Shown here piece after piece: positions 961-25,435 of a stretch of 64,000 nt of DNA. Made by a program: the position numbers and the translations under genes. The stretch covers positions 23,003 to 87,002 of the forward strand of contig JAENZP010000014.1 of the NCBI GenBank assembly GCA_016841205.1, in the 5' to 3' direction. Position 1 is the first letter of the stretch, and every line of letters starts with the position of its first letter. Origin of the DNA: Desulfoscipio geothermicus. Its GTDB lineage: Bacteria > Bacillota > Desulfotomaculia > Desulfotomaculales > Desulfallaceae. The notes under the pieces were generated by a model that searched no databases, was not told the origin of the DNA, and worked only from the letters and a program-made list of their open reading frames with translations.

Positions 961-963
961 GTC

Positions 964-5826: not shown

Positions 5827-5828
5827 CC

Positions 5829-8175: not shown

Positions 8176-8231
8176 ATAATTACCTCGCTTTCTACAGTGT
8201 TCATGCTTCCCGTAATGTTTGTACTATGTCA

Positions 8232-9729: not shown

Positions 9730-9748
9730 TTTTACCGCCCATTCGAAT

Positions 9749-9991: not shown

Positions 9992-10016
9992 GTCTATCAC
10001 CTCCAATTACGAACTT

Positions 10017-10055
10017 CGCTTATTGCGTAGTTTAATTATAACTACGCAATAAGCG
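10017..10055. promoter_or_regulatory. Operator: perfect 16-bp inverted repeat CGCTTATTGCGTAGTT / AACTACGCAATAAGCG separated by 7 bp
   Basis: Lies in the 147-bp divergent region between the two XRE genes. A related half-site is repeated at about 10069-10087. Confidence 0.7.
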
Positions 10056-10153
10056 ATTGTCAATATAAAACTACGCATATTGCGAATGTTTATTTATTAT
10101 ATTCGCATACTGTGATATATTAAACTTATTGGCAAAAAAAAGGGGTTTTAAAT

Positions 10154-10612: not shown

Positions 10613-10630
10613 GTATAAGGATGAATTAAA

Positions 10631-11140
10631 ATGGTTACCTTGGATACCTTACTTCTTATTACTGATACACTTGGTATAAAAGTTAAATTTAAGGATTTAA
10701 ATAGAAACCACATTGGATTATTGGGAAAGGCCGACGCAAACAAAAGGAAAGTTGTATTAGATAACTCTTTAAAATTTTGTATGCGTGAACAAAAGTGTAT
10801 TCTCTCCGAAGAAATAGGGCATATTCTCTATCCGCCTAGACCTGGTCATATAGCTTACCACGCTCGCGGTTACTATGACATTGACAACATAGAAAGAAGC
10901 ATAATTAAAGTAACTGTTGCCCAGGATGAGCGTAGAGCGCTCGACTGGGCAACAAATGCTTTAATACCAGATGTCGAATTTTGGCGAGCTGTGGAAGAAG
11001 GTGAAAATATATTATATCAATTAGCTGATTGGTTTGAGGTAACTGAGTGGTTTATGCGCATTAAAATAGGGTATATCAGGCGCAAGGCCCTCGACAATGG
11101 AACACGTTTAAAATGGAACGACATAATAAGGCGTAACTAA
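10631..11140 (+). CDS. ImmA/IrrE-family (DUF955) metallopeptidase-like anti-repressor
   Basis: Immediately downstream of the repressor. SEEIGHIL stands in place of the HExxH motif (first His is Glu), followed by ERRALDWATNALIP, which resembles E..AN.FA..LL.P. Confidence 0.6.
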   Translation: MVTLDTLLLITDTLGIKVKFKDLNRNHIGLLGKADANKRKVVLDNSLKFCMREQKCILSEEIGHILYPPRPGHIAYHARGYYDIDNIERSIIKVTVAQDERRALDWATNALIPDVEFWRAVEEGENILYQLADWFEVTEWFMRIKIGYIRRKALDNGTRLKWNDIIRRN

Positions 11141-11595: not shown

Positions 11596-13338
11596 ATGTC
11601 TTATTCTAGTGATGCAGTAAATACAATATTTCAAGAACGTGGTGATTTTATAATTATTGGCCTTACGGGAAGAACTGGCTCTGGTTGTACAACCGTTTCG
11701 AAGATATTATCACAAAATGATTTTGACGCACTTTCTCTACAAACACCTAATGATTATGATTTTAAAGATAATGAACAACGCAAATATAGGCTTATATATA
11801 ATTATGCAAAGGAAAATTGGACCCCTTTCAGATCGATTGGGATGTCCATAGTGTTAGCCTCATTTATTTTTGAAAAAGGTTATAACACTATTAAAAATTT
11901 TATTGATTCCCAAAACGATATTAAAATTCATAGAAAAGAAGAACTATTATCAGAACTTGATACCTTGTCGTCGTCTATTGATGAAATATCACAGGATTTA
12001 AAAACCTTTATAGATGCAAATGGGCGTTTAAAGCGAGATTCTCCTGAAATACAAAAAGGAGAAGTTACGCTATTAGCAAAGATAGATACTGCAACAACTA
12101 ATTTTAAAAACATTTTGAAAAAATATACGTTAACGCAAGATATTGAGGTCGAAGGTGAAAAACAAGAATGTGTTGCGCAAGCATACACATACTTCTTTCA
12201 ACTATTTGGTAATAATGTTAGAGGGAGTGGTAATCCTTTAGACAATTCTTTTAGTGGCAAAAACATGTTTGACTTAGCCATACGTGCAAACGATTTTATA
12301 AAAGCTATTCGTGAATCTCAACAGCTAAAGAACAAACCAACACTTATATGTATTGACGCACTAAGAAACTCCTTCGAAGTAACCTATTTTCAAGATAGAT
12401 TCTCTGCCTTTTATTTAATGGCAATTGTTACGGATGATGAAGAGCGACAACGTCGCTTAGCTGAAATGAACAAAAAACAAATATTAAGTTTAGATGCAAT
12501 GGAGTATCCTAACAAGCTCACGGATGAAAAGCTGTTCAAGCAACAAAATATAGCTGCTTGCTTGGAAATATCAGACATTCATGTTTATAATCCTCAAACA
12601 TCTACTATAAAGAATAATTACTATTTAACTACACAATTGATAAAGTATGTAATGCTAATGAAGCATCCAGGACTTGTAACTCCGACACATATTGAACGGT
12701 GCATGCAAACTGCTTATAATGCTAAATTAAATTCCGGTTGTTTATCACGACAAGTGGGAGCTGTTATTACAGATAAAAACTTTAGTATTAAGGCTGTCGG
12801 TTGGAACGATGTGCCTTCTGGTCAAATATCATGTAATTTAAGAGATGTTAATTCATTATATGTTAATAAAGATTATAATTCGCATAGTAAATTTGAAATA
12901 GAAAATCAGGAGTTTTCTAATAAAATTAACAATCTTAATTCTAAAATTGATTATTCACGACTTAAAGGCCGACTATACCCATATTGTTTCAAGGATATTC
13001 ATGATAAAAAGAATCAAGTCCATACGCGCTCATTACATGCTGAAGAAAATGCCTTTTTACAAATTGTAAAGTATGGAGGAATTGGGATAGAAGGAGGAGT
13101 CTTATTTACAACTGCCAGTCCATGTGAATTATGTTCAAAGAAAGCATATCAACTTGGTATCAAACAAATATATTATATAGATCCATATCCAGGTATATCT
13201 AAAGACCATATATTAACCTTTGGAGATAATAATCCAGAAATAAAACTTTTTTTTGGTGCAATTGGATGTGCTTACACAAAATTATATTCACAACGATTGT
13301 CAATAAAAGATGAATTGAAAATGTTAAATGAAGGATAA
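11596..13338 (+). CDS. P-loop NTPase/kinase-like N-domain fused to CMP/dCMP-type zinc deaminase; AvcD / dCTP-deaminase-type antiphage protein
   Basis: Walker A GLTGRTGSGCTT near the N-terminus. C-terminal deaminase motifs HAEENAF and PCELCSKK. GAGGAG SD. Very AT-rich relative to its neighbours. Confidence 0.7.
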   Translation: MSYSSDAVNTIFQERGDFIIIGLTGRTGSGCTTVSKILSQNDFDALSLQTPNDYDFKDNEQRKYRLIYNYAKENWTPFRSIGMSIVLASFIFEKGYNTIKNFIDSQNDIKIHRKEELLSELDTLSSSIDEISQDLKTFIDANGRLKRDSPEIQKGEVTLLAKIDTATTNFKNILKKYTLTQDIEVEGEKQECVAQAYTYFFQLFGNNVRGSGNPLDNSFSGKNMFDLAIRANDFIKAIRESQQLKNKPTLICIDALRNSFEVTYFQDRFSAFYLMAIVTDDEERQRRLAEMNKKQILSLDAMEYPNKLTDEKLFKQQNIAACLEISDIHVYNPQTSTIKNNYYLTTQLIKYVMLMKHPGLVTPTHIERCMQTAYNAKLNSGCLSRQVGAVITDKNFSIKAVGWNDVPSGQISCNLRDVNSLYVNKDYNSHSKFEIENQEFSNKINNLNSKIDYSRLKGRLYPYCFKDIHDKKNQVHTRSLHAEENAFLQIVKYGGIGIEGGVLFTTASPCELCSKKAYQLGIKQIYYIDPYPGISKDHILTFGDNNPEIKLFFGAIGCAYTKLYSQRLSIKDELKMLNEG

Positions 13339-13543
13339 TGCTAACTCCTTATTACATATTCCCGTTAGGTTAATAATGGGAAGCATAAGACTAGTAAAGT
13401 TCGTGGCATCCTTATTCGATGTGAACATACTGATGATTAGTGTTGTACATAGCCCAATAATTCATTTACTTGATAATTTTATATTTTTATTGGATTACAG
13501 TAGAATACTTGGTACTATATAGTTTAAATCAGCAGTCTCACTA

Positions 13544-15916
13544 ATGGGAGTGGTGGTGACAAATATAGTCATGGAAAAAAGGCAATTAACTGAGCAGGAA
13601 ATCAGAACTCAATTTATTACTCCTGCCATTAAAAATGCAGGTTGGACAAATGCTCAACTGCGAGAAGAATATCCCATTACAAAAGGGCGCATTATTGCGC
13701 GTGGTGGTACCTACAAACGAGATCATGCCAAGTTTGCCGACTATATTCTTTTTTACAAGTCGCATATCCCCCTTGCAGTTGTGGAGGCAAAGGATAATAA
13801 CCACGCTATTGGCGAAGGTATGCAGCAGGCGCTGGACTATGCCCAGCGCATGATGATCCCGTTCGTATTCACATCCAACGGTGATGGATTTACGTTTCGC
13901 AACCGTATTGATTCAAGCGAAAAAGTTATTGGTTTGACTGACTTCCCTTCCCCGGAATCGCTTTGGCATATTTATAGACAGAATGCCAGAATTGACGGTC
14001 AGCAAGAAAAAGTAATAACACAGCCTTATTATTTAGAGCGCGAGGACAAGGCCCCGCGCTATTACCAACTTAATGCAATCAATCTAACGGTGGATGCCGT
14101 GATACGCGGGCAAGACCGTGTCTTACTTGTCATGGCAACAGGAACAGGCAAAACATATACGGCTTTCCAAATTATCTGGCGGCTTTGGAAAGCGAGTGTT
14201 AAGCACCGCATTTTGTTTCTTGCTGACCGCAATGCCTTGATTGACCAAACCTATGTCAACGATTTTGCGCCGTTCAAGGATAAAATGACGATTATCCGCA
14301 ACCGGAAGATTGATAAATCCTATGAGATCTATCTTGCGTTGTATCAGGGGCTGACCGGTAATGGTGACAAGGATGTCTTTAAACAGTTCAGCCCGAATTT
14401 CTTTGACCTGATTATCGTGGACGAATGCCATCGTGGCAGCGCAAAAGCGAACAGTGAGTGGCGCGAGGTGTTGGAGTATTTCAAACCCGCTGCGCAAATT
14501 GGACTGACTGCCACGCCGAAAGAAGATAAAGATGTGTCGAACATCGATTATTTCGGCAAGCCTATCTATACATACTCGCTCAAGCAAGGTATTAACGACG
14601 GTTTTCTCGCGCCGTACCGGGTGATCCGCGTGCTTTTAGACAAGGATGCCGAGGGCTTCCGACCCTATCTCGGTCAGACTGACCGCTTTGGCAATGAGAT
14701 CATCGACCGCGAATACAACGTCAGCGACTATGATCGCGAACTGGTTTTGGAGCAGCGAACAAAAATTGTTGCCACAGTGGTTTCGAACTATCTGAAAAAG
14801 CATAACATCCGTTATGATAAGACCATCTTTTTCTGTGTAGATACAGAACACGCAGACCGAATGCGGCAGGCTCTTGTCAACGAAAACCGCGATTATGTGA
14901 TCGAAGACGAACGTTATGTCATGCGTATCACCGGCGATGACGACCCTGGTAAAAAGCAATTGGACAATTTTCGTGATGTATCCAGCAAATATCCTGTGCT
15001 TGTTACCACATCAAAGCTGCTCACTACCGGCGTTGACGTCCAGATGGTAAAAAATATCGTACTGGATTCCAATATTAACAGCATGACGGAGTTTAAGCAG
15101 ATTATTGGCCGTGGAACACGCGTCCGTGAAGACTTAGGCAAGATGTTCTTTACCATCTTCGACTTCCGCGATGTTACACGCCACTTTGCCGACCCTGACT
15201 TTGACGGGGCTGTGGAGCAAGACGAAGCTTTTACTCTGGGGCCAAACGAGGAAATTCCACCTTTGCCGAATGACCCGATTGACGATCCCCCCGCCGGTGA
15301 TGACCCAGATTGGCTAGTACCTTCCGGTGGTGACGATCCGCCTACAGGTCGTAGACAAAAATACTATGTCAACGATGTGCCGGTCACCGTTTTAAAGCAA
15401 CGTGTGCAGTATATCGACAAGGACGGTAAGTTGATCACCGAGTCGTTGACTGATTACACGCACCGCAATATGCGCAATCAGTATGCCACGTTGGAGGAAT
15501 TTCTGTCGGCTTGGAACAGTGCAGAACGCAAGCAAATAATTATGGACGAGCTAGCAGCACAGGGTGTTTTCATCGAAGAATTACAGGAGCAAATCGGGCA
15601 GGAGTTTGACCCGTTCGATTTACTTTGCCATGTCGCTTTTGACCAGCCACCACTAACACGGCGCGAGCGGGCAAACAACGTAAAGAAGCGTAACTATTTT
15701 GCGAAGTACGGCGAACAGGCTGCGGCCGTACTAGACGCCTTGCTTGAGAAATACGCCGATTCTGGGGTTTCCAATCTGGAAAGCATGGATATTCTCAAGG
15801 TCAATCCCATTCGGGACTTCGGTTCGCCGGTACACATTGTGAACCGCATTTTCAAGGGGAAAGCGAACTTTGAACAGGCTCTGCGGGAGCTGACCCACGA
15901 ACTCTATGTAGCGTAA
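13544..15916 (+). CDS. hsdR: Type I restriction enzyme R subunit
   Basis: N-terminal EQEIRTQFITPAI, helicase motif I MATGTGKT, DEAD-box IVDECHRGS, GLTATP, TTGVD. The true start may be the ATG at 13571. Confidence 0.9.
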   Translation: MGVVVTNIVMEKRQLTEQEIRTQFITPAIKNAGWTNAQLREEYPITKGRIIARGGTYKRDHAKFADYILFYKSHIPLAVVEAKDNNHAIGEGMQQALDYAQRMMIPFVFTSNGDGFTFRNRIDSSEKVIGLTDFPSPESLWHIYRQNARIDGQQEKVITQPYYLEREDKAPRYYQLNAINLTVDAVIRGQDRVLLVMATGTGKTYTAFQIIWRLWKASVKHRILFLADRNALIDQTYVNDFAPFKDKMTIIRNRKIDKSYEIYLALYQGLTGNGDKDVFKQFSPNFFDLIIVDECHRGSAKANSEWREVLEYFKPAAQIGLTATPKEDKDVSNIDYFGKPIYTYSLKQGINDGFLAPYRVIRVLLDKDAEGFRPYLGQTDRFGNEIIDREYNVSDYDRELVLEQRTKIVATVVSNYLKKHNIRYDKTIFFCVDTEHADRMRQALVNENRDYVIEDERYVMRITGDDDPGKKQLDNFRDVSSKYPVLVTTSKLLTTGVDVQMVKNIVLDSNINSMTEFKQIIGRGTRVREDLGKMFFTIFDFRDVTRHFADPDFDGAVEQDEAFTLGPNEEIPPLPNDPIDDPPAGDDPDWLVPSGGDDPPTGRRQKYYVNDVPVTVLKQRVQYIDKDGKLITESLTDYTHRNMRNQYATLEEFLSAWNSAERKQIIMDELAAQGVFIEELQEQIGQEFDPFDLLCHVAFDQPPLTRRERANNVKKRNYFAKYGEQAAAVLDALLEKYADSGVSNLESMDILKVNPIRDFGSPVHIVNRIFKGKANFEQALRELTHELYVA

Positions 15917-15935
15917 CGAACGGGAGGAACATGAA

Positions 15936-17375
15936 ATGGCAGTTTCAAACACCACCAAAGCCTTAAAGGATATCATGCGTATTGACGCAGGCATCAACGG
16001 TGACGCGCAGTATATTGAGCAGATCACGTGGATGCTGTTCCTGAAGGCATTTGATTATAAAGAACAGGAATGGGAACTAACCGAGGACGATTATTATCCT
16101 GTCATACCCTATGAATACCGGTGGAGTGTTTGGGCGGACGATCCCGAGGGTATCACAGGTGACGCACTGGTTGCCCATGTAGACACGATGTTTGTCACCC
16201 TGCGTAATCTAGATACTTCTGACGACACAAAAAAGCGCAAATGGCTAATTAGGGAAGTCATGGATGGTATTAACAATTTTATGAAGTCCGGCACGCTACT
16301 GCGACAGGTCGTGAACAAAATCAACGCTGACATCAATTTTGACGAGGTCAGAACAGCCCATTTGTTCAACGGATTATATGAAACCATGCTCAAAGATCTG
16401 CAAAGCGCGGGCAAGGCAGGCGAGTTTTATACGCCTCGCCCTGTGACCCGCTTTATTGTGGAGAAAATTGACCCTAAGCTGGGCGAATTCGTCCTCGACC
16501 CGGCATGCGGTACGGGCGGCTTTTTGACCAGCGTGGTTGACCGTTACACAATCAATACAACAGAGGAATATAAGACGCTGCAAGCAACGATAAAGGGTAT
16601 TGAGAAGAAGCCATTTCCCTACTTACTTTGCGTGACCAACCTGATTGCGCACGGAATCGACGTACCGAATATCCGTCATGATAACACACTCCGCACGCCT
16701 GTCGCCGATTATGGCGTCAAGGACAAGGTAGATGTAATTGTCACCAATCCACCTTTCGGCGGCGCGGAGGAAAAGGCGATTTCACAATCCGTATCGGCGG
16801 AATTACGCAACACCGAAACCGCCGACCTGTTCCTTGTACATATTATGGCGCTGCTCAAAGACGGCGGGCGCTGCGGCCTTGTTTTGCCGGACGGCTTCCT
16901 GTTCGGTACCGGCGTTAAGTCCGCCATTAAGAAAAAGTTGCTGGAAGAAAACGACCTGCATACTATCGTGCGCCTGCCAAAGGACGTTTTTGCGCCGTAC
17001 ACAAACATAAACACAAATCTGTTGTTTTTCAAAAAAGGCCGTCCAACAAAAGGCGTATGGTTTTACCGGCTGGAAATGCCTGCGGGTTACAAGCATTTTT
17101 CCAAAACGCGCCCCATGTTAGACGCACATTTCGACCCCCTGCGGAATTGGTGGAACGCCCGCAATGATAGCGACGTTTCGCAGTATGTACCGGTGGAGGA
17201 TATCATTGCAGGCGATTATAACCTTGATCTATGCGGCTTTCAGCACGATACGTTAGAAATTTTGGCTCCTGATGAGTTTATCAATCAATATTTGAATAAT
17301 AAGGCTGCAATCTCTGCTCGTATTGAGAATATATTGGCGCGCATTTCCGCCGCGATGGAACAGGAGGATGTATGA
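15936..17375 (+). CDS. hsdM: Type I R-M N6-adenine DNA methyltransferase subunit
   Basis: AdoMet motif LDPACGTGGFL and catalytic NPPFGG. Its stop overlaps the hsdS start (ATGA). Confidence 0.9.
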   Translation: MAVSNTTKALKDIMRIDAGINGDAQYIEQITWMLFLKAFDYKEQEWELTEDDYYPVIPYEYRWSVWADDPEGITGDALVAHVDTMFVTLRNLDTSDDTKKRKWLIREVMDGINNFMKSGTLLRQVVNKINADINFDEVRTAHLFNGLYETMLKDLQSAGKAGEFYTPRPVTRFIVEKIDPKLGEFVLDPACGTGGFLTSVVDRYTINTTEEYKTLQATIKGIEKKPFPYLLCVTNLIAHGIDVPNIRHDNTLRTPVADYGVKDKVDVIVTNPPFGGAEEKAISQSVSAELRNTETADLFLVHIMALLKDGGRCGLVLPDGFLFGTGVKSAIKKKLLEENDLHTIVRLPKDVFAPYTNINTNLLFFKKGRPTKGVWFYRLEMPAGYKHFSKTRPMLDAHFDPLRNWWNARNDSDVSQYVPVEDIIAGDYNLDLCGFQHDTLEILAPDEFINQYLNNKAAISARIENILARISAAMEQEDV

Positions 17376-18997
17376 TGAAAGCGTCGGAACTCCGCCAATC
17401 CATTCTGCAAGCGGCTGTGCAAGGCAAGCTCGTACCACAAAACGTCCATGACGAACCAGCGGTAGAGTTGCTGAAGCGCATCCGGCAGGAAAAGACACGG
17501 CTTGCAGAGGAAGGCAAAATCAAAAAAGAAAAGCCCCTTCTGCCGATTACAGAGGACGAAATTCCATTCGATTTGCCTGATGGGTGGGTTTGGTGTAGGT
17601 TAGGCACAGTGGCTGATCACTCGCTTGGGAAAATGCTTGACAGTCAGAAAAATAAAGGAGTGAATCAGAAATATCTTAGAAATCAAAATGTACAGTGGTT
17701 TCATTTTGATTTATTAGATTTGAAAGAAATGAAAATCGATCAATCTGAACAGGAGAGATATTCTGTTTCAAAAGGTGATCTTATAATTTGTGAAGGCGGT
17801 TATCCTGGTACATCAGCAATTTGGGAAGAAGAATCTTCGATATTTTTTCAAAAAGCTCTTCACCGCGTCAGATTTTTCCTGCAGGGTATGAACTATTACT
17901 TTCATTATTGTTTATACTTGTCTGCTCTTTCCGGTGACCTAAACAGGTATTATACCGGCTCGGGTATTCAACATTTTACCGGATACTCGTTAAATAGATT
18001 TGTTTTCCCCCTGCCGCCCCTTAGTGAGCAACAGCGCATCGTCGTAAAATTGAACGAGTTGATGACGCTGTGTGATGAACTGGAAGCAGCGGAAGAAGAA
18101 CTAAATGCGCTGGAAAACCGCTTTACCGAGTACCTGCCAAAATCCATCCTGCAGGCGGCGGTGCGGGGTAAACTTGTGTCACAAAACGTCCATGACGAAC
18201 CGGCATCTGAGCTGCTCAAGCGCATCTGGCAAGAAAGGGCACGGCTTATTAAGGAAGGAAAAATCAAAAAAGAAAAGCCTCTCCCCCTGGTTACAAAGGA
18301 TGAAATCCCATACGATTTGCCGGTTGGGTGGGTTTGGTGCAAAATAGGAGATATTGCAAATATATATACTGGCAATAGCATTAATGGAAATGATAAAAAA
18401 ACTAAGTACACGGGCTTGTCAGAAGGATATTTCTATGTTGCAACAAAGGATATAGGACAAGATAATTATATAAACTATGAAAATGGAATTGTAATTCCTT
18501 TTGACAACACTAACTTTCGAATAGCACCTGCATTCAGCGTACTTCTTTGCATTGAAGGTGGAAGTGCAGGTAAAAAGATTGCAATTACTAATCAAGATGT
18601 TTGCTTTGTCAACAAGTTGTGCTGTTTCTCATCTTATATACTTGACAGCAAGTACTTATTCTATTATCTGAAAAGTCCAGTGTTTTCTTCTTTATTTCAG
18701 TCATGCATGACTGGAATCATCGGTGGCGTTGGAGTAAATAGTATTAAAAAATTATTGTTTGTACTCCCGCCCCTCGCCGAGCAGCAGCGCATCATCGCCA
18801 AACTGGACGAACTGATGGCGATGTGCGATGAACTGAAAGACTCAAGGAATATACCCATAAAACCGGTTGTTTCAAATGTCGTGCCATTTCAGCCTAAAGA
18901 GAAATGGGATGAACTGCTTATTGCAGCTCGCGGTGATGCTTCACAAGGCTTGTCCGATAAAGCACAGCATGACGTCGACGAACTGTTGGGGGATTAA
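17372..18997 (+). CDS. hsdS: Type I R-M specificity subunit (two TRDs, duplicated conserved frame)
   Basis: Two copies of SILQAAV.GKLV.QNVHDEPA.ELLKRI...GWVWC and of LPPL.EQQRI..KL.ELM..CDEL flank two AT-rich variable regions. Confidence 0.9.
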   Translation: MMKASELRQSILQAAVQGKLVPQNVHDEPAVELLKRIRQEKTRLAEEGKIKKEKPLLPITEDEIPFDLPDGWVWCRLGTVADHSLGKMLDSQKNKGVNQKYLRNQNVQWFHFDLLDLKEMKIDQSEQERYSVSKGDLIICEGGYPGTSAIWEEESSIFFQKALHRVRFFLQGMNYYFHYCLYLSALSGDLNRYYTGSGIQHFTGYSLNRFVFPLPPLSEQQRIVVKLNELMTLCDELEAAEEELNALENRFTEYLPKSILQAAVRGKLVSQNVHDEPASELLKRIWQERARLIKEGKIKKEKPLPLVTKDEIPYDLPVGWVWCKIGDIANIYTGNSINGNDKKTKYTGLSEGYFYVATKDIGQDNYINYENGIVIPFDNTNFRIAPAFSVLLCIEGGSAGKKIAITNQDVCFVNKLCCFSSYILDSKYLFYYLKSPVFSSLFQSCMTGIIGGVGVNSIKKLLFVLPPLAEQQRIIAKLDELMAMCDELKDSRNIPIKPVVSNVVPFQPKEKWDELLIAARGDASQGLSDKAQHDVDELLGD

Positions 18998-19001
18998 GCG
19001 A

Positions 19002-19769
19002 ATGAACAACCCGGAGACCAAAGCAAAATGGGTGCTTGAGACAAAAGGTATTTCTGGTGTTCCGGCAGAATCCCTCAAAGCAATCGCCGACAGTGAAAGG
19101 ATAAAGCATAGATATAATGATTACCCAGAGGACGCATGGGACGGTATGCTGCTTTATAAAGGAGATAGAAAAGCCATACTTGTGAACATACGTAGGGGCA
19201 ATACCGGAAAGCATCATTTTACATTCGCGCATGAACTGGGGCATTATTTTCTAAACCATCCGCCGAGTTATATGAAAAATGGGCAATCGGGTTTTCGCTG
19301 TACCTCCGAGGATATAGAAAAAGAGCAAAAGCCGCGTGAGGCTGAGGCCAATCGCTTTGCGGCGGAGTTGCTGATGCCGCAAGACCAATTTCAACTTAAT
19401 ATGGTCGGTGCTCCGCTGGATTTTGGGCTGATAAATGGCCTCTCCAATCGTTATATGGTATCCAAGCATGCTTGCAGCAATCGCATTTTGCAGTTGACAC
19501 ACTCCCCATGCATTATTATTCGCACAAAAGGCAACCAGATCACCAGTTGGAGTGTTTCCCGTGCCGCAAAAGGTCTCCTACGAAAACTGGATGCTCTCCC
19601 GAAAGATACTGCCGCTCATAAAGCAATCGTCAATAAGTGGGGACATTATGATTTTGTAGAATGCGCTGCGGGGAAATGGCTCATTCGTGACGTGCCCGGC
19701 ATAAAGATATACGAATGCACCCATGTACATGCTGGAAGCGGCACAGCAATGACGATATTGAAGTGGTAA
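19002..19769 (+). CDS. ImmA/IrrE-type (COG2856-like) zinc metallopeptidase domain protein with uncharacterised C-terminal domain
   Basis: HEXXH in FTFAHELGHYFLNH plus EAEANRFAAELLMP. The ATG is 4 nt after the hsdS stop. The track ORF start at 18867 overlaps hsdS and is probably spurious. Confidence 0.7.
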   Translation: MNNPETKAKWVLETKGISGVPAESLKAIADSERIKHRYNDYPEDAWDGMLLYKGDRKAILVNIRRGNTGKHHFTFAHELGHYFLNHPPSYMKNGQSGFRCTSEDIEKEQKPREAEANRFAAELLMPQDQFQLNMVGAPLDFGLINGLSNRYMVSKHACSNRILQLTHSPCIIIRTKGNQITSWSVSRAAKGLLRKLDALPKDTAAHKAIVNKWGHYDFVECAAGKWLIRDVPGIKIYECTHVHAGSGTAMTILKW

Positions 19770-20024
19770 ATTTATTATATATAAAGCTCCTGTAACTTGT
19801 TAAGCCTCCGGTTATCTACATACTCATTAGGCTATAATTAGCAGTTATGTGAATAACGTATTATTTATAATTAAAAGTTTTTGATCGCTATAGCCATAGG
19901 GAAAATCTACGAATCTATTATCGGTTATCCAAGATAATATTGAGCTTAGCCGAACAAAAATACGGTAATCCCGTAGATTGGAAAGATGATGCGGATAAAT
20001 TAATGAAAGGGAAGGAGGGATTTT

Positions 20025-21236
20025 ATGCAAAACATAATTAAATTAAAGATTAGTGACGGTGACAAGATTATTTTCGAGAAGCAATTTCTAATCAATGAAG
20101 CTATGATTACGATAAGTGATGATTTTGTCTTAAATATATTAAGACCTTTCAATATTAACAAGGATTCCATCAAGCATTGCTATTTTACATTTGGGCTTAA
20201 TAATACATTTGTCGATATCAAAGATTATTCTTTGACAAATCAAATTTATATTGAGGGTTTTTTTAATCAACCATCACATATTGCTTTTTTAAGATGTAGG
20301 GATACAAAGTTACATATAGTTAACCAAAATATCGAAAAAATGCAGATTGATGGTTATAGTATGCTGGTTGCTGAATGCAAGATCGGAAAGATAGAATTTG
20401 GATTAAATAAACTAGCTGAAATTCTTAGGAACGATCAAAATATTAATGTAACAGAAATACATATTGACAGTATTGATATTCGGCATAGTGTCATAGATGA
20501 AATAAGTTTATCAGCTTCTTGTGATAATATTAATATTCAAGAGTCCGAAGTAAAAATTTTAAGATTAGGGAACATGTTTGGTATATCAAGAGCTATAAGC
20601 CATATAAACATTTGGCGGAATTGTTTAATAAATTCTATTGAACTAGCTTGCCCTGTTAATGTAATGAAAATGTCTGAATCAACGATTAATTTTATTTTAT
20701 CTAAAGCTCAATGCAAAATTAACTCATTAGATATTAAACAAGTAGCTCTTAATAATGCCTATGATTTTAATTTGAATAGTTTTAATGGGTTTAATGTACA
20801 TTCATGGCTATTAATATCTAAATCTGCTGCATCGTCTAAAGATATTGAGCTTCTTGCCCAAGCAAATTATAATATTTCTGATTTATATATGAAAGAAAAG
20901 CCGTGGAACATCAAAATACCTATGCTATTTTTCAAGGCAACCACTGGATATGGTTATAAGCCATTTAGAATTATCTGGTTTTCTTTAATTGTCTTACTAA
21001 TATTCTGCGGTATATTTTCTTTGATGGATATACATAATTCATGCCAACTTAAGACTGATATTTTATTTGATATCTTTCAAGAAAGGATAATATATTCATT
21101 AAATAGCTTTGCTGGAATTAGTGGAAATCAAAACTTAAAGGTAGAATGTGCATTTACTTTGTTAGAAAACATATTGGGAGTTGTTGCTTTTGCTATGTTT
21201 GTAAATGCTCTCTATGTAAAGTATAAAGCTTCTTAA
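20025..21236 (+). CDS. Uncharacterised protein: ~20-residue Ile/Asn-rich solenoid-like repeats followed by a C-terminal 2-TM + pore-loop-like (ion-channel-like) domain
   Basis: GGAAGGAGGG SD. Hydrophobic segments FRIIWFSLIVLLIFCGIFSLM and AFTLLENILGVVAFAMFVNALYV flank IIYSLNSFAGISGNQ. Very AT-rich. Confidence 0.55.
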   Translation: MQNIIKLKISDGDKIIFEKQFLINEAMITISDDFVLNILRPFNINKDSIKHCYFTFGLNNTFVDIKDYSLTNQIYIEGFFNQPSHIAFLRCRDTKLHIVNQNIEKMQIDGYSMLVAECKIGKIEFGLNKLAEILRNDQNINVTEIHIDSIDIRHSVIDEISLSASCDNINIQESEVKILRLGNMFGISRAISHINIWRNCLINSIELACPVNVMKMSESTINFILSKAQCKINSLDIKQVALNNAYDFNLNSFNGFNVHSWLLISKSAASSKDIELLAQANYNISDLYMKEKPWNIKIPMLFFKATTGYGYKPFRIIWFSLIVLLIFCGIFSLMDIHNSCQLKTDILFDIFQERIIYSLNSFAGISGNQNLKVECAFTLLENILGVVAFAMFVNALYVKYKAS

Positions 21237-21238
21237 TA

Positions 21239-21462
21239 GGGTGCGACGTCCTGTCGCACTCTGACTTTGGGGGCCCTCATTCATCTGATAATAGAGTATT
21301 CCCGACACTAGCCAAGATGAAAGGGAATGGCGCGTCGGGAATGCTCGGGACAATATGCCGGACATCGCTCGTGGCGTCGCCATCAGCCGGGTTTTCAACT
21401 GATGCCGAAATGCCCACATTCGTGGGCATTTCGGGAAGCCACCCCCACGTTATGCGACAGAT
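21239..21462 (+). other. GC-rich, strongly self-complementary intergenic element (candidate structured RNA or MITE-like insert)
   Basis: 13-bp perfect hairpin 21405-17/21422-34; 9-bp stem 21298-306/21334-42; 7-bp stem 21241-47/21253-59; 6-bp stem 21381-86/21399-404. Long-range complementarity 21251-58/21453-60 and G5/C5 21269-73/21442-46. Confidence 0.45.
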
Positions 21463-21486
21463 TAGTAATAGAAAGGAAAAGTTATA

Positions 21487-22494
21487 ATGAATTTTTTATA
21501 TTATCCAACTATTGCAATACCGATAGATGAATTGAAGAAGTATGTTTTATATGCTGACAAAATAAGTAGCATAGTTCCTGATGATTATTGTTTTATTGAA
21601 GATAACGAGGACAATAGATTGAATGAGTCCATAACGTCAATGAGCTATTTAGAAGAAATTGGAATTTATGAAAAAACATATTCTTCTAACGTTCTAATTA
21701 GCTATAAAGATACCCTTATAGATGAATTTATGGCTAGAATAATAAAAGAAGAAATATATAGAAAAGTGAAAGCAGGGCATAGACCCTCAACTTGGTGGGA
21801 GCTTTATACATCTAAACTTGATAATACAATTAAAGAGATGCTAATTGAAGAAGGTTTAGCTGAAAAAAGTACATATAATACAGTAATAGTTGCAACTGAA
21901 ATTGCTAGTATATATATGGGTTTATTAGCAGAGTATGCATCGATCTATGGTAAAACTTTTTATTCTACGGTAACAAATGATAATTATTATAAAGAATTGG
22001 TATATAAGCCAATTATAGAAAATGATAGAATTCTTAAGTTAAAATTTAGCATATTAAGTATTTTGCCGGTACCAACAGAAGATACTTCCTTAGAAGATAT
22101 TGTTCACTTTAAAGAAAGAAGAAAAGAAGAGTTATTAAGATTTCAAATACTTATTACTGATATTCAAGGTATACTTGCAAAAGCTCAAGATGTTAGAGAG
22201 TTCAGAGAGGTAATGGATAAATATGAGAAAGTATTTTGTTTGCAACTATTAGAATTAGAAAGCTTACTCAAAGAAAATAGTATTAGTTTTGTTGGGAATA
22301 CAATTGATTGTTTTATATCAAATTCAATTGAGGATTTAATTGAGGATTTAACTGGTATTAATGTTAGTAGAGGAATATTAAAATTAGGACCAGTTATTGA
22401 GAAAAAAATATTTGGAAAGAAATTATTAATAAGAGCTAATCCGACATCTTACTTATTAAGCGCAAACGGTGACAATATTATTAATATAAGATAA
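21487..22494 (+). CDS. Uncharacterised 335-aa soluble protein (N-terminal LYYPTI...YADKISSIVP recalls DUF6236-type proteins; unverified)
   Basis: Long track ORF with an AAAGGAAAAG SD-like stretch. Very AT-rich. No catalytic motif recognised. Confidence 0.55.
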   Translation: MNFLYYPTIAIPIDELKKYVLYADKISSIVPDDYCFIEDNEDNRLNESITSMSYLEEIGIYEKTYSSNVLISYKDTLIDEFMARIIKEEIYRKVKAGHRPSTWWELYTSKLDNTIKEMLIEEGLAEKSTYNTVIVATEIASIYMGLLAEYASIYGKTFYSTVTNDNYYKELVYKPIIENDRILKLKFSILSILPVPTEDTSLEDIVHFKERRKEELLRFQILITDIQGILAKAQDVREFREVMDKYEKVFCLQLLELESLLKENSISFVGNTIDCFISNSIEDLIEDLTGINVSRGILKLGPVIEKKIFGKKLLIRANPTSYLLSANGDNIINIR

Positions 22495-22670
22495 TTCGGC
22501 GCATAACAGGGCGTTATATGATATTTCAGGTTTTGCGTTTTTTCGTGAGGATCTGAAGAATTATTTTGGATAGTAACTATAGATTTTATTAGGTCTTGGA
22601 AGAGTAGTAAACATCAATTAAAAAGCTAGCAATATTTAAATTTAGAACAAAGCTTCGTATTATTCATATA

Positions 22671-22905
22671 ATGGAATATGGCAACTATTCAACAAGCCAT
22701 AAAAATAGTGTTGTTAAGTTTAACCTAGCTGAAGCCACGACTAGGCTAGCTTTAAAGTATAAGGATGTTCGTGCAATAACTTCTGAAGATCAGGACGCCA
22801 CTTTCACCACGATGATGGTTACCGGGTTACGCCGGGGAAGACTGCTCAGCTTACACTGAGAAATGGATAGATATTTGGCGCTTTATATATTGATTGATAG
22901 ATGCC
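22671..22905 (+). pseudogene. Relic of a tyrosine recombinase (phage integrase) gene
   Basis: ...TTMMVTGLRRGRLLSLH*EMDRYLALYILIDR matches the conserved TGLRrgELl.LrW.DiD first-Arg box and is interrupted by a stop. Only about 40 residues of similarity survive. Confidence 0.5.
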
Positions 22906-22949
22906 ATAATAATATTGAATATGTTAAAGTAATTAAGGAAGGGTTGACT

Positions 22950-23156
22950 ATGAAATTTCCTGTTACGATTCATCCTGGTGAGGATGGATATTTTGTGGCT
23001 GAATGCCCAATCGTGCCTGGATGCGTGTCCCAGGGCAAGACAGCAAAAGACGTATTAGACAACATAAAAGAAGCCATTGAATTATGCCTAGAAGTTAGAA
23101 AAGAACAAGGATTACCCCTTGTATTGCCTCTACATGAAGTTGAGGTGGCTATCTAA
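22950..23156 (+). CDS. hicB: HicB-family antitoxin (UPF0150 fold)
   Basis: MKFPVTIHPGEDGYFVAECPIVPGCVSQGKTAKDVLDNIKEAIELCLE. AAGGAAGGG SD before the ATG at 22950. Confidence 0.75.
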   Translation: MKFPVTIHPGEDGYFVAECPIVPGCVSQGKTAKDVLDNIKEAIELCLEVRKEQGLPLVLPLHEVEVAI

Positions 23157-23248: not shown

Positions 23249-24691
23249 ATGCGTTGTGCGGTATACCGTCGAGTATCAACTGATATGCAGGCTGAAGAAG
23301 GTTTCTCTTTAGAGGCTCAAAAAGTTCGTTTAAATGCATATGCGGAATCACAGGGTTGGACTATCGTTGAAGACTATTGTGATGAAGGATTTTCCGCTAA
23401 AAATATTGACCGGCCAGAAATGCAAAGACTAATTACAGACATACAAAATAAGAAATTTGATTTGGTGCTTGTTTATCGTTTAGATCGTTTTGTTCGGTCT
23501 GTGGTTGACTTACATGAATTATTGCAGCTTATGGAAAAATATGATGTTAAATTTAAGAGTGCAACAGAAATGTTTGACACTACATCGGCAACTGGTAGGT
23601 TATTTATTACTCTTATAGCAACATTAGCCCAGTGGGAAAGAGAAACAATAGCAGAGCGTGTACATATGGGTATGACAAAAAAAGTAGAACTTGGTGAAAG
23701 AAACGGAGCTCCTGCCCCATATGGATATGATTTAGTAAATAGAGAGCTTATTATAAATGCTCAAGAATCAAAGTGGGTTAAATATATATTTAATCGCTAT
23801 GGTTTAGTTGGTTCACAAACCATAGCAAAAGAACTGAATCGCAAAGGTATTTCTACCAAAAAAGGTGAAGTATGGAGCGATTTTTCTGTCCGCTATATAC
23901 TTAAAAATCCTATTTATACCGGGTTAGTTCGCTGGAATTACGAAAGCGCTAACAAAGGTGTGCGAAAAAAAACAGGTGAAGAAATTATAACAGAGTTAGC
24001 TCAGCCTAATTTTGAGGCAATTATTAGTACAGAGATATTTAAAGAGACACAAAAACTTATGGCTCAAAGAAGCAATCAAGCCTTTAGATCAGATAATTTC
24101 TATCCATTTTCCGGGGTCGCAAAATGTGAAAAATGCGGCTATTCTTTTACCGGTGGCTTTAAAAAGTTAAAAAGTGGGAAAGTTCATCGTTTTTATAAAT
24201 GCCGCGGTAGAATTAATTTTGGTATTTGTGATGTTCAAGTTATTTCAGAGGCAGCAATAGAAGAAGCTTTTTTAGATATTCTTGAGTTAGTTAAAACAGA
24301 ACTAGCAATTGAACAACCTGGACAAACCGTTTCCACTGAGGATATACAAAAACGATTAAATAGGCTTAAACGAAAAAAAGAACGTGCGGAAGAATTATAT
24401 TTAGAAGGAGATATATCAAAAGACAAGTATATTCGTATTACGGAAGGTATTAAAGTTGAAGAAAAGGATCTATATAGTGTCTTGGATACAACAAATAACG
24501 CTCAATCGTTGGATCAAGTTAAAGAATTACTCCAGAATTTAAAAAACGAATGGCAATACTTCCCATACGAAACTAGAAAGCAAGCCGTCCATTCTCTATT
24601 TAAATCTATAACTATTCGTCTTGCAGAAAAAGCTAATCAAGGTCGGGGTAAAAAAGCTAAAATTGAGATTGTAGATTATAAACTTAATTAA
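23249..24691 (+). CDS. Large serine recombinase (phage integrase type)
   Basis: Resolvase-type N-domain with catalytic Ser (AVYRRVSTDMQ), a recombinase domain, a Cys4 zinc ribbon CEKCG...YKCRG, and a coiled-coil C-terminus. Confidence 0.9.
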   Translation: MRCAVYRRVSTDMQAEEGFSLEAQKVRLNAYAESQGWTIVEDYCDEGFSAKNIDRPEMQRLITDIQNKKFDLVLVYRLDRFVRSVVDLHELLQLMEKYDVKFKSATEMFDTTSATGRLFITLIATLAQWERETIAERVHMGMTKKVELGERNGAPAPYGYDLVNRELIINAQESKWVKYIFNRYGLVGSQTIAKELNRKGISTKKGEVWSDFSVRYILKNPIYTGLVRWNYESANKGVRKKTGEEIITELAQPNFEAIISTEIFKETQKLMAQRSNQAFRSDNFYPFSGVAKCEKCGYSFTGGFKKLKSGKVHRFYKCRGRINFGICDVQVISEAAIEEAFLDILELVKTELAIEQPGQTVSTEDIQKRLNRLKRKKERAEELYLEGDISKDKYIRITEGIKVEEKDLYSVLDTTNNAQSLDQVKELLQNLKNEWQYFPYETRKQAVHSLFKSITIRLAEKANQGRGKKAKIEIVDYKLN

Positions 24692-24722
24692 GATATAGGA
24701 TTATTTACAATATGCTTGGTTC
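24692..24722. other. Element/host junction (att half-site region)
   Basis: The PrkA reading frame (minus strand) stays homologous through ...CPMHEEP (codon P at 24717-24719), then diverges (SIL*) and stops at 24705. Confidence 0.5.
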
Positions 24723-25145
24723 TTCGTGCATAGGGCAGTTTTTAATAGCGTAAACCGCACCACGATCCCGTTTGCTATACTGCTCCAGTCCCCTTTTCAG
24801 CATAGCCACCAAGGTGGACTTACCACCACTTACCGGGCCCATTAAAAGTAAAATGCGCTTGCGCACATCCAAACGACGGGCCGCAGGATGAAAATACTCT
24901 TCAACCAGTTTTTCCAGCGTTCTATCCAGCCCAAAGATTTCCTGGTTAAAGAACTTATAACGCTTACCGCCATATTCCAGTTCCTCCACTCCTGCATCAT
25001 AAAGCATATTGTAAATCCTGGCGTGAGCTAATTGTGCTACTGTGGGATTCTCCTTGACTAAATCCAAATAGTCGTAAAATGTACCTTCCCATCTATACTG
25101 TTTTTCCAGAGAGCGGAATTCATCCAATCTCTTAATAAAATCCAC
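24705..25145 (-). pseudogene. prkA: 5' portion (about 143 codons) of prkA (PrkA serine protein kinase, AAA+ P-loop), interrupted by the element
   Basis: Close match to the B. subtilis PrkA N-terminus as recalled: WEGTF.DYL..VKENP.VAQ, HPAA.RLDVRKRILLLMGPVSGGKSTLV.MLKRGLE, AVYAIK.CPMHE. Full-length PrkA is about 630 aa. Confidence 0.85.
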
Positions 25146-25367
25146 TTTTTCACACTCCCCCTATTATTCGTTATTGGATTATAAACTAGCATATGGTTAA
25201 GCAACCAACTTCTCCACACAAACAAGTACTATATTTATATGCAGCAACGTTTAAATGAGTATCCTGCTAAGTTGTAGTAATAGACTATTTTTGTCTGAAA
25301 ACTTATTATTAACGTTATATTTTCGCTGTTATTCGGAGTTTAAAAATTTTTATCTTTAACAATAAAG

Positions 25368-25409
25368 CAAAAAAGGACAGGCGGCTCTCTCGAAAAGAAC
25401 CGCCTGTCC
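25368..25409 (-). terminator. Rho-independent terminator after gatD
   Basis: 10-bp stem GGACAGGCGG / CCGCCTGTCC (25375-84 / 25400-09), followed on the minus strand by T6. Confidence 0.75.
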
Positions 25410-25435
25410 CTACAAAATTACATAACATTAACTTA

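What the first reader, a model, noticed from the sequence alone, without database searches (positions are those of the whole stretch)
23249..25145. A serine-recombinase prophage is inserted inside the sporulation gene prkA
Seen:
- The minus-strand ORF 24705..25145 encodes the first ~143 residues of PrkA, including the P-loop LLLMGPVSGGKST and ...AVYAIKNCPMHEEP.
- The frame then diverges and stops 14 nt from the 3' end of a large serine recombinase gene (23249..24691).
- Everything to the left is phage-like.

Established:
- PrkA is about 630 aa and is a sporulation-associated (mother-cell) gene in Bacillus.
- skin/sigK, SPbeta/spsM and similar intervening elements are excised by large serine recombinases in the mother cell to rebuild the split gene.

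Inference: this element may be a prkA-intervening prophage, reconstituting prkA by developmentally timed excision while remaining in the spore germline. I do not recall prkA among the classic examples.
Basis: partly seen in the sequence, partly recalled or inferred. Interest (0 to 1): 0.7.

Follow-up and report, generated by a model that had tools for sequence, protein, structure and literature searches.

The report
Prophage splitting the sporulation gene prkA
The window holds the integrase end of a prophage that a large serine recombinase inserted into codon 142 of the sporulation gene prkA; other genomes show this is a conserved phage attachment site that I could not find described, and it probably behaves like the skin and SPbeta elements that are cut out in the sporulating mother cell.

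Summary
Window 24705..25145 (-) encodes PrkA residues 1-141/142 and then diverges. It sits 13 nt from the stop codon of an intact 480-aa large serine recombinase (LSR, 23249..24691 +). To the left lie phage lysogeny and replication genes and a defence island. The element runs off the left edge of the window, and I could not retrieve its far end.

Comparison settles what the site is. Every relative of this LSR that I checked at 54% identity or more sits at the same prkA position. These are a metagenomic prophage, Brevibacillus brevis, Parageobacillus thermoglucosidasius, Pontibacillus and Paenibacillus larvae. The free P. larvae phage Likha carries a symmetric attP centred on the GA of ATGCATGAG-GA.

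In P. thermoglucosidasius a roughly 10-kb remnant lies between both prkA halves. Joining them at GA gives a gap-free 631-aa PrkA. Its LSR is under purifying selection across strains.

Two unrelated LSR lineages split prkA at residues ~258 and ~290. A 42-47 aa ORF accompanies the LSR in all six compared elements and is a candidate directionality factor.

Mother-cell excision is inferred, not shown. I found no paper that names prkA as such a target. Verdict: a new member of a known kind.

The parts
24705..25145 (-). 5' stub of prkA. It holds codons 1-141 plus the first two bases of codon 142, then 4 phage-derived codons and a stop.
   Evidence: Pfam AAA_PrkA, profile 2-127 of 358. tblastn gives 79% identity over residues 1-142 of D. 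australicus PrkA. Sequence read.
24697..24746 (-). Integrase-proximal hybrid attachment site (B-O-P'). The host B arm covers about 24746..24723. The phage P' arm ACCAAGCATATTGTAAATAATCC covers about 24720..24697.
   Evidence: The junctions of six related elements and the Likha attP align in register as ATGCAYGARGA plus a P' arm. The attB consensus comes from 73 intact prkA genes.
24721..24722 (-). Predicted crossover dinucleotide GA, the first two bases of the second Glu codon of CPMHEE (codon 142).
   Evidence: GA is the symmetry centre of the Likha attP, TTACTTATC-N12-GA-N12-GATAAGTAA. Around that position the only stretch common to attL and attR of the P. thermoglucosidasius element is AGA. 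This is a prediction for the window.
23249..24691 (+). Large serine recombinase (integrase), 480 aa, convergent with the prkA stub.
   Evidence: Resolvase, Recombinase and Zn_ribbon_recom domains. PHROG 95 integrase, E 6e-133. 31% identical to TP901-1 Int. Relatives at 54% identity or more all lie beside a PrkA stub.
9043..9186 (-). 47-aa ORF (MEEKPLKIQLNEEQTKRFLSFFIKDAIEIVKKR...), a candidate recombination directionality factor. It lies downstream of the cro-like gene in the early operon, after a 99-aa ORF (9526..9825) and an untranslated gap.
   Evidence: It is the only non-recombinase ORF shared by all six compared elements, including the degenerate P. thermoglucosidasius remnant. It is identical in six P. 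thermoglucosidasius strains. It has no Pfam or PHROG family. Its function is inferred.
9749..11140 (.). Lysogeny switch: cro-like HTH (9749..10006 -), cI-like HTH repressor (10154..10612 +) and ImmA/IrrE-like peptidase (10631..11140 +).
   Evidence: Pfam HTH_3 and Peptidase_M78. Homologues occupy the same position in Likha, L092 and L082.
11596..23156 (+). Cargo and defence island between the repressor module and the integrase. It holds a dCTP deaminase (11596-13338), type I R-M hsdR/M/S (13544-18997), a CapP-like M78 peptidase (18867-19769), a 403-aa membrane protein, a DUF6236 protein and HicB (22863-23156).
   Evidence: PADLOC dCTPase 1e-124, REase_I E=0, capP 4e-44. Pfam results.
1..8726 (-). 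Phage early and replication region, truncated by the window edge. It holds Phage_rep_O (2562-3470), an IstB/DnaC-like loader (1793-2614), a C5 DNA methylase (4077-5498) and DUF2786/DUF7168 (964-1668).
   Evidence: Pfam. Homologues of the loader and of the 245-aa ORF occur in the L090 and L092 prophages.
25146..25411 (-). prkA's own upstream region. It has a terminator of the upstream gatD gene (25411..25373) and a conserved promoter-like -10 GCATATAAAT (25242..25233) with ACTCATTT (25260..25253).
   Evidence: Terminator scan. The -10 block GCATATAA is conserved upstream of prkA across Desulfotomaculia loci. Bacillaceae loci carry CATGTT-N14-GCATAGAGTATA there, which I read as sigma-E-like from memory of the consensus. 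The promoter assignment is inferred.

Best explanation
The window holds the integrase-proximal junction of a temperate prophage longer than 24.7 kb. The phage's own large serine recombinase integrated it into a roughly 50-bp attB. That attB is the invariant coding stretch ...GCPMHEEPLHLIP... of prkA, and the crossover is at the GA of codon 142.

Integration leaves a 141-residue P-loop stub under the intact prkA promoter. It moves the remaining 489 codons to the far side of the element.

Shown:
- The junction, the recombinase and the phage and defence content are in the window.
- The recombinase clade and this attB go together in at least six hosts and in free virions.
- In a relative with both ends, recombination at GA rebuilds a full 631-aa PrkA.

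Inferred:
- Excision needs the recombinase plus a directionality factor, for which the conserved 42-47 aa early-operon ORF is the candidate.
- As with SPbeta in spsM, excision happens on prophage induction and also in the terminally differentiating mother cell. PrkA would be made there while the spore keeps the prophage.
For: (1) Junction and domains.

(2) Conserved target. Relatives of the recombinase at 74%, 68%, 58%, 56% and 54% identity lie convergent to a 141-residue PrkA stub, and the 55%-identical Likha recombinase lies beside the corresponding attP. The junction register is identical, ATGCAYGARGA plus P'. Relatives at 45-47% identity sit beside other genes. A further nine recombinase/stub pairs share a contig length, besides the window and B. 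brevis pairs already counted.

(3) The free phage Likha (virion isolate, Fernvirus) has an attP with inverted arms TTACTTATC/GATAAGTAA around ATGCATGAG-GA-GCC. A P. larvae genome has the corresponding prophage in prkA.

(4) Both halves are found in P. thermoglucosidasius. The element is 9.0-10.0 kb. Joining at GA gives a 631-aa PrkA that aligns gap-free, 1-631, with D. australicus PrkA at 74.6% identity.

(5) Signs of selection for excision in the P. thermoglucosidasius remnant:
- It has no Pfam-recognisable phage structural or replication genes and varies by an IS insertion and a 1-kb deletion.
- All six strains read keep a 482-aa recombinase. It differs by up to 20 nt but by only 0-3 residues.
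- All six keep an identical 42-aa ORF, and wherever a prkA half lies inside the fetched locus it is intact.

(6) Independent recombinase lineages (32% and 28% identity to this one) split prkA at residue ~258 (L053, L078, L032) and ~288-291 (L004, L007, L042). L053 is a 4,032-bp minimal element whose excision at an 18-bp direct repeat restores 631 aa.

(7) prkA is a sigma-E-regulon sporulation gene needed for normal sigma-K expression in B. subtilis. Its CATA-type promoter block is conserved upstream of the window's stub.
Against: - The far end of this particular element was not seen. Frame restoration is therefore unproven for the window itself.
- No expression or excision data exist.
- The motif upstream of the small ORF has a CATA -10-like block, but its -35 region does not fit my recollection of the sigma-E or sigma-K consensus.
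- The window's element looks like a recently active prophage. Intact prkA halves would also be expected after a recent plain insertion.
- As I recall the B. subtilis work (not re-read here), prkA loss reduces sporulation but does not abolish it, so lysogens might simply tolerate the knockout.
- The small ORF has no similarity to any known directionality factor, including TP901-1 Xis.
- The host of the window is only inferred to be a spore former. The evidence is SigI, YteA, a SpoIID/LytB-domain protein and relatives in Desulfotomaculia.
Confidence: 0.55

Rival explanations
1. Plain lysogenic insertion into a safe-harbour gene. The phage uses the invariant CPMHEEPLHLIP coding stretch only because it is the same in many hosts and because prkA is dispensable in growing cells. 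prkA stays off in lysogens, possibly weakening or delaying sporulation. It is restored only when the prophage is induced or lost. There is no mother-cell programme.
For: The attB is the most conserved DNA stretch of the gene, with all first and second codon positions at 90% or more over about 50 bp in 73 genomes. This alone explains its use and the wide host range. As general knowledge, large serine integrases often target conserved coding genes. The window's element is a full-looking prophage with an SOS-type switch (cI-like plus ImmA), and close relatives have S24 LexA-like repressors. No sporulation promoter could be assigned.
Against: Degenerate remnants would be expected to lose the recombinase, and the split gene would be expected to decay. 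Instead the P. thermoglucosidasius remnant keeps an intact recombinase under purifying selection, at most 3 residue changes against up to 20 nt changes. It also keeps an invariant small ORF, and the prkA halves that could be read are intact, across strains. The 4-kb L053 element keeps essentially only a recombinase and an ImmA-like fusion protein. Three independent recombinase lineages converge on the same sporulation gene.
Confidence: 0.35
2. Phage-imposed control of host development. Disruption of prkA is itself the adaptive outcome for the phage. It delays or lowers sporulation so that lysogens keep growing, or it alters spore properties. Excision is not coupled to sporulation.
For: A prophage-like element in yabG of C. 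botulinum changes the timing of sporulation (PMC10747680). PrkA modulates sigma-K expression. P. larvae, whose infective form is the spore, carries such prophages.
Against: This does not explain why non-phage remnants that can no longer benefit as phages keep a functional-looking excision module. No phenotype data are available.
Confidence: 0.08
3. An artefact or decaying pseudogene: a mis-assembly, or an old random disruption of prkA next to an unrelated recombinase gene.
For: Only one junction is visible in the window.
Against: The same junction recurs to the base register in independent assemblies, species and a virion genome. The stub has no internal stops or frameshifts and keeps 79% identity to intact PrkA.
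Confidence: 0.02

Closest known systems
SPbeta prophage in spsM of Bacillus subtilis (SprA integrase with SprB directionality factor)
   Same: It is an active-looking prophage integrated by a large serine recombinase inside a mother-cell sporulation gene. The recombinase gene lies at one end. A small early-region protein is the directionality factor (58-aa SprB there, by my recollection; a candidate 42-47 aa ORF here). Excision rebuilds the reading frame (PMC4191935, PMC5499854).
   Different: The target gene differs (prkA, not spsM). The recombinase is only distantly related: SPbeta integrase matches at E 1e-11 in the PDB search. The candidate factor has no sequence similarity to known ones. 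Sporulation-dependent excision is demonstrated for SPbeta and not here.
skin element in sigK (SpoIVCA) and the small remnants vfbin (spoVFB) and vrin (spoVR, in G. thermoglucosidasius C56-YS93)
   Same: The roughly 10-kb P. thermoglucosidasius element and the 4-kb L053 element in prkA look like these. They are degenerate, non-infective remnants that keep the recombinase between two intact halves of a sporulation gene. By my recollection, spoVR and prkA are often neighbours or functionally linked. In the loci read here, only the yhbH-like DUF444 gene downstream of prkA was seen.
   Different: The window's own element is large and phage-like, not a remnant. prkA is absent from the targets named in the papers I could read. 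The 2013 paper that described vrin could not be read.
Listeria A118 / phi10403S prophage in comK (active lysogeny)
   Same: A serine-integrase prophage splits a host regulatory gene and restores it by precise excision.
   Different: In Listeria the trigger is life inside the phagosome and the prophage re-integrates. Here the proposed trigger is terminal mother-cell differentiation. This comparison rests on general knowledge, not on a tool result.
Lactococcus phage TP901-1 integrase with Orf7 (Xis)
   Same: It has the closest solved catalytic domain (E 4e-35) and is 31% identical over the whole protein. Its excision factor is also a small protein (64 aa) encoded in the early lytic operon.
   Different: TP901-1 Xis shows no similarity to the small ORF family. 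TP901-1's attB is not in prkA.

Membership tests
Large serine recombinase (phage serine integrase) | N-terminal resolvase catalytic domain with the nucleophilic serine, followed by a recombinase domain and a zinc-ribbon domain | tested here: met
   Pfam Resolvase 8e-40, Recombinase 3e-18, Zn_ribbon_recom 3e-11. The motif VYRRVSTDMQ is at residues 5-14. PHROG 95 integrase.
Large serine recombinase (phage serine integrase) | Short (about 40-50 bp) attP with imperfect inverted arms around a central dinucleotide, and hybrid attL and attR sites after integration | tested here: met
   The Likha attP is TTACTTATC-N12-GA-N12-GATAAGTAA. The attL and attR of the P. thermoglucosidasius element share AGA at the centre. 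The window shows the B-O-P' hybrid in the same register. The window's own attR was not seen.
Sporulation-gene-intervening element (skin / SPbeta / vfbin / vrin / gin class) | The element interrupts the coding sequence of a host gene and carries its own site-specific recombinase next to a junction | tested here: met
Sporulation-gene-intervening element (skin / SPbeta / vfbin / vrin / gin class) | The interrupted gene is a sporulation gene expressed in the mother cell | tested here: inconclusive
   This holds for B. subtilis prkA (sigma-E regulon). For this host there is only a conserved CATA-type promoter block upstream of prkA. There are no expression data.
Sporulation-gene-intervening element (skin / SPbeta / vfbin / vrin / gin class) | Both gene halves are present in the same orientation and join in frame at the attachment-site core | not testable with these tools
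   The far end is outside the window and the contig could not be retrieved. The feature is met in relatives: L085 at the same site and with the same recombinase clade, and L053 at a second site. Both give a 631-aa gap-free PrkA.
Sporulation-gene-intervening element (skin / SPbeta / vfbin / vrin / gin class) | The recombinase or its directionality factor is expressed from a sporulation-specific (sigma-E or sigma-K) promoter | tested here: inconclusive
   A conserved GGGTYGTCC-N14-CATAnnnT block (in window, L082, L090; the other three elements keep only the CATA or CATG block) precedes the candidate factor. Its -35 part does not fit the sigma-E or sigma-K consensus as I recall it.
Sporulation-gene-intervening element (skin / SPbeta / vfbin / vrin / gin class) | Precise excision occurs in the mother cell during sporulation, and the element is retained in the spore genome | not testable with these tools
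   This needs PCR, long reads or reporters in sporulating cultures.
Temperate tailed phage (prophage) | A lysogeny switch, a replication module and virion structural and lysis genes | tested here: inconclusive
   The switch and replication genes are present. Structural genes would lie beyond the left edge of the window. The relative Likha, with a 55% identical integrase and the same attP core, is a complete siphovirus genome isolated as virions.

The most novel reading that the evidence does not exclude
prkA may be a general, so far unrecognised hot spot for developmentally excised elements in endospore formers. At least three unrelated serine-recombinase lineages hit it at three positions. 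The elements range from infective phages (P. larvae Fernvirus) to 4-10 kb domesticated remnants fixed in a species (P. thermoglucosidasius). The conserved 42-47 aa protein would be a new family of recombination directionality factor that switches excision on in the mother cell.
Probability: 0.4. Interest if true: 0.7.

Novelty: new member of a known kind. Interest (0 to 1): 0.55.

Why it matters
If excision is developmental, prkA joins sigK, spsM, spoVFB, spoVR, gerE and yabG as a sporulation gene that is rebuilt by DNA rearrangement. Here the same gene is targeted by at least three recombinase lineages, from Desulfotomaculia-like anaerobes to Bacillaceae and Paenibacillus. That strengthens the view that mother-cell genes are preferred, low-cost landing sites for mobile elements.

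Practical consequences:
- It gives a well-defined new integrase/attP/attB set, with an attB that is almost invariant across Bacillota.
- It provides a candidate directionality factor that can be tested in vitro.
- It predicts that split prkA annotations ('serine protease', 144 aa) in P. thermoglucosidasius and other genomes are not pseudogenes.
- It raises the question of whether lysogeny by Fernvirus phages alters sporulation of Paenibacillus larvae, whose spores are the infectious agent of American foulbrood.

If excision is not developmental, the finding is still a clean, conserved prophage integration site that inactivates a sporulation regulator.

Tried and rejected
- Retrieving the window's own contig. 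Exact-protein look-ups for the recombinase, the stub, MurT and P0001 all returned nothing. Cluster look-up gave no accession.
- The single genome-contig scan found only relatives at 80% identity or less.
- A protein search with the PrkA C-terminal 489 residues returned only proteins at 86% identity or more, nearly all full-length. None sat on a 95,228-bp contig.
- Viral-contig scans with the recombinase and with an attP pattern found nothing.
- The metagenome attR pattern found three sites, but not the far end of the closest prophage L082.
- The small ORF was searched against Pfam, PHROGs and TP901-1 Xis without a significant match.
- I tried to read the motif upstream of the small ORF as a sigma-E or sigma-K promoter. 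The -10 fits (CATA) but the -35 does not, so I do not claim it.
- I considered that the P0036 recombinase might be the vrin (spoVR) recombinase of G. thermoglucosidasius. I rejected this because it lies directly beside the prkA stub and the prkA 3' half.
- L006 (frame break near residue 418) and L056 (break near 272) were not resolved. I do not count them as recombinase insertions.
- The 2013 Mol Microbiol paper on vfbin and vrin could not be read. A mention of prkA there cannot be excluded.
Full report
**1. What is in the window**

The minus-strand ORF 24705..25145 encodes 146 residues. The first 141-143 are PrkA: Pfam AAA_PrkA, profile positions 2-127 of 358, E 2e-35, and 79% identity to residues 1-142 of the 631-aa PrkA of Desulfofundulus australicus.

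After ...NCPMHEEP the sequence reads SIL-stop, where intact proteins read LHLIP. Thirteen bases further on is the stop codon of a convergent 480-aa gene (23249..24691). That gene has Resolvase, Recombinase and Zn_ribbon_recom domains and a catalytic-serine motif, so it is a large serine recombinase (LSR).

No other PrkA-like segment exists in the 64 kb.

The host side, to the right, carries a strong terminator after gatD/murT (25411..25373). It also keeps an intact prkA upstream region.

The region to the left of the LSR contains:
- HicB, a DUF6236 protein and a membrane protein
- a CapP-like peptidase
- a complete type I R-M system
- a dCTP-deaminase defence gene (PADLOC 1e-124)
- a divergent cI-like/cro-like switch with an ImmA-like peptidase
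- a leftward early operon with Phage_rep_O, a DnaC/IstB-like loader and a C5 methylase

G+C content is patchy across this region, 28-52%. The element continues beyond position 1, so it is at least 24.7 kb and its far end is not in the window.

**2. The insertion site is a conserved attachment site**

The identical recombinase is on record on a 95,228-bp NCBI contig, but that contig could not be fetched. Its relatives could be fetched. I examined the genomic context of relatives at six levels of identity:

| Source | LSR identity to window |
|---|---|
| Metagenomic prophage (L081-L084) | 74% |
| Brevibacillus brevis (L090) | 68% |
| Parageobacillus thermoglucosidasius (L085-L087) | 58% |
| Paenibacillus larvae genomes (L100, L101) | 56% |
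| P. larvae phages Likha, Riker, Norbert, phiERICV | 55% |
| Pontibacillus (L092) | 54% |

In every genomic case the recombinase gene is convergent with a PrkA stub that ends at residue 141. The junctions line up base for base as ATGCAYGARGA followed by a related phage arm (...RWAAGTAA...). For the phage row, attP was read in Likha and one record end in phiERICV.

Nine further recombinase relatives (73% to 49% identity) share a contig length with a PrkA stub found in a separate search. At 45-47% identity (B. licheniformis, B. cereus) the neighbouring gene is different. The prkA specificity therefore belongs to one clade.

Phage Likha, a complete siphovirus isolated as virions, carries the sequence gaTTACTTATCatATGCATGAGGAGCCattgatacGATAAGTAAccc directly after its integrase gene. 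This is a textbook serine-integrase attP. It has 9-bp inverted arms 24 bp apart, and its centre falls on the GA of ATGCATGAG-GA.

The host site is the coding stretch for YG/AIKGCPMHEEPLHLIP. In 73 intact prkA genes, every first and second codon position over about 50 bp is at least 90% conserved. That explains both the choice of site and the broad host range.

By this register the window's crossover dinucleotide is at 24722..24721, and the P' arm runs to about 24697. This is a prediction.

**3. Does excision rebuild the gene?**

For the window this cannot be tested. The contig is not retrievable. A search with the C-terminal 489 residues of PrkA was swamped by proteins at 86% identity or more, nearly all full-length.

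In P. thermoglucosidasius both halves are on one contig, in the same orientation and 9,959 bp apart:
- attL reads ...ATGCATGAAGAagcatacatatgataagtaa...
- attR reads ...tttacttgccgtatgcacgcAGACCCCCTCCATTTAATTCC...

Around the centre the two sites share only AGA. Joining at GA yields a 631-aa protein that aligns gap-free, 1-631, with D. australicus PrkA at 74.6% identity.

A metagenome scan for attR-like sites found the same junction twice. It also found a third, different element next to PrkA residues 136-631.

**4. Evidence on whether excision serves the host**

The P. thermoglucosidasius element has no Pfam-recognisable phage structural or replication genes. It holds YkuD, YjcZ-like, cupin and response-regulator genes and a cI-like HTH gene.

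The stub is indexed in 58 blocks of the collection. These include the complete genomes CP016916, CP063414 and CP002835 (C56-YS93) and the 3.85-Mb record BHZK01000001.

The element varies between strains. Five strains give 9,018 to 9,983 bp; the sixth (CP016916) carries an IS and its far junction lies beyond the fetched locus. Even so, all six strains examined keep a 482-aa recombinase. Their recombinase genes differ by up to 20 nucleotides but by only 0-3 residues, roughly dN/dS 0.05. All six also keep an identical 42-aa ORF. A remnant that had merely knocked out prkA would be expected to lose these.

prkA is also split elsewhere by unrelated recombinases (32% and 28% identity to this one):
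- At residue ~258 in L053, L078 and L032. In L053 a 4,032-bp element holds little more than an ImmA-like fusion protein and a recombinase. It is flanked by an 18-bp direct repeat, and its removal restores a gap-free 631-aa PrkA.
- At residues ~288-291 in L004, L007 and L042.

Among the 80 best species-representative loci, none was interrupted at codon 142. Seven are cut short at residues ~258-291. For three of these (L042, L053, L078) a recombinase or prophage genes are visible beside the break. L006 has an unresolved frame break, L002 and L020 run off their contigs, and the rest read through at 629-636 aa.

This pattern of several recombinase lineages, elements ranging from active phages to minimal remnants, and intact halves is what has been described for sigK and spsM (PMC4191935, PMC6957869).

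PrkA itself belongs to the sigma-E regulon. It is an ATP-dependent protease needed for normal sigma-K expression in B. subtilis. A CATA-type promoter block is conserved upstream of prkA from Bacillaceae to the window's lineage.

**5. A candidate directionality factor**

I compared all ORFs of six elements against each other: the window, L082, L090, L092, the P. thermoglucosidasius remnant and Likha. Besides the recombinase, only one family is common to all. It is a 42-47 aa protein, M-K-I-x-L-N-x-E-Q-T/A-K-K/R-F-..-I-V/A-K-K/E-R with a charged tail.

In the prophages it lies just downstream of the cro-like gene in the early operon. In the window it is at 9043..9186 on the minus strand. In the remnant it is divergent from the recombinase.

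A weak match (E 2.5e-4) also sits at the same place in the B. cereus prophage, whose recombinase has a different target.

The family has no Pfam or PHROG match and is unrelated to TP901-1 Xis. Co-occurrence, size and position make it the best candidate for the excision cofactor. This is inference only.

In the window, L082 and L090 a conserved GGGTYGTCC-N14-CATAnnnT block precedes the ORF; the other three elements keep only the CATA or CATG block. The CATA part resembles mother-cell -10 elements, but the upstream part does not fit the sigma-E or sigma-K consensus as I recall it. I leave it unexplained.

**6. Comparison with what is known, and novelty**

Mechanistically this is the SPbeta/skin class: a serine-recombinase element inside a mother-cell sporulation gene.

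Literature searches returned no paper that links prkA to a prophage, an attachment site or an intervening element. They combined prkA with intervening element, serine recombinase, prophage, attB, integration site and Paenibacillus larvae.

The papers read name sigK, spsM, spoVFB, spoVR, gerE and yabG. The 2013 paper on vfbin and vrin is not in the library. It studied strain C56-YS93, which also carries the split prkA, so an earlier mention cannot be excluded.

I rate this a new member of a known kind. The integration and its site specificity are solid, about 0.95. Sporulation-coupled excision is plausible. I put it at about 0.55 for the clade, and somewhat lower for this particular, still phage-like element.

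**7. Rivals**

The main rival is a plain insertion into a conserved, dispensable gene, with excision only on induction (0.35). The extreme conservation of attB and the SOS-type switches favour it. The selected excision module in the remnants argues against it.

A variant is that the phage benefits from disabling prkA (0.08). An artefact is excluded by the recurrence of the junction (0.02).

Noticed in passing
window 11596-19769: There is a defence island inside the prophage, between the repressor module and the integrase. It holds a P-loop/deaminase fusion matching the PADLOC dCTPase (dCTP deaminase) model at 1e-124, a complete type I R-M (hsdR, hsdM, hsdS) and a CapP-like M78 peptidase with no obvious CBASS partner.
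   Followed up: partly
window 21236-21460 (+): A GC-rich intergenic stretch of about 210 nt lies between a 403-aa membrane protein and a DUF6236 gene. It folds far better than shuffles (MFE -95.4 kcal/mol, z -4.6) into several long hairpins. No Rfam family reaches threshold (RAGATH-12 at E 0.06 only). It may be an undescribed structured RNA of a defence or cargo module.
   Followed up: partly
window 2741, 6938, 8383, 9022, 9228, 10418, 18948 (and L082, L090, Likha): The octamer GGACAASC occurs 11 times in the window against 2.9 expected, 7 of them inside the prophage. Five of those seven lie on the strand of the early operon. Copies flank the small candidate-RDF ORF in the window, L082, L090 and Likha. 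This may be a regulator-binding site.
   Followed up: partly
window 8985-8996 and 9400-9411: A perfect 12-nt inverted repeat, CCCCCGCCATTT / AAATGGCGGGGG, brackets the small candidate-RDF ORF, with 403 nt between the arms.
   Followed up: no
window 50753-50866 (-): A lone 5S rRNA gene (Rfam 55 bits) has no 16S or 23S rRNA and no tRNA gene anywhere in the 64-kb window.
   Followed up: no
L094 10001-13216 (B. cereus) and L093 8277-10303 (B. licheniformis): More distant relatives of the recombinase (47% and 45% identity) abut an asparagine-synthase gene (595 aa) and a molybdopterin-oxidoreductase-like gene (197 aa). I did not check whether these genes are split. From memory only, the B. subtilis asparagine synthetase asnO is sporulation-related.
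   Followed up: no
L085 1608-9443 (P. thermoglucosidasius element): The 10-kb prkA-intervening remnant carries a YjcZ-family small protein, a cupin, a single-domain response regulator and a YkuD-domain protein. From memory, YjcZ is a sporulation-protein family. The cargo may be sporulation-related.
   Followed up: no
L095 35464-37026 (phage Likha): Likha encodes a second, unrelated serine recombinase (520 aa, 26-28% identical to the integrase clade) in its late-early region, plus a HicAB pair. The window's prophage also carries a HicB-like gene next to its integrase.
   Followed up: no
window 29708-31713 (-): A SigI sigma factor is paired with a probable RsgI-like anti-sigma protein. The C-terminus of the latter is a low-complexity, internally repeated N/Q/K/S-rich region.
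   Followed up: no
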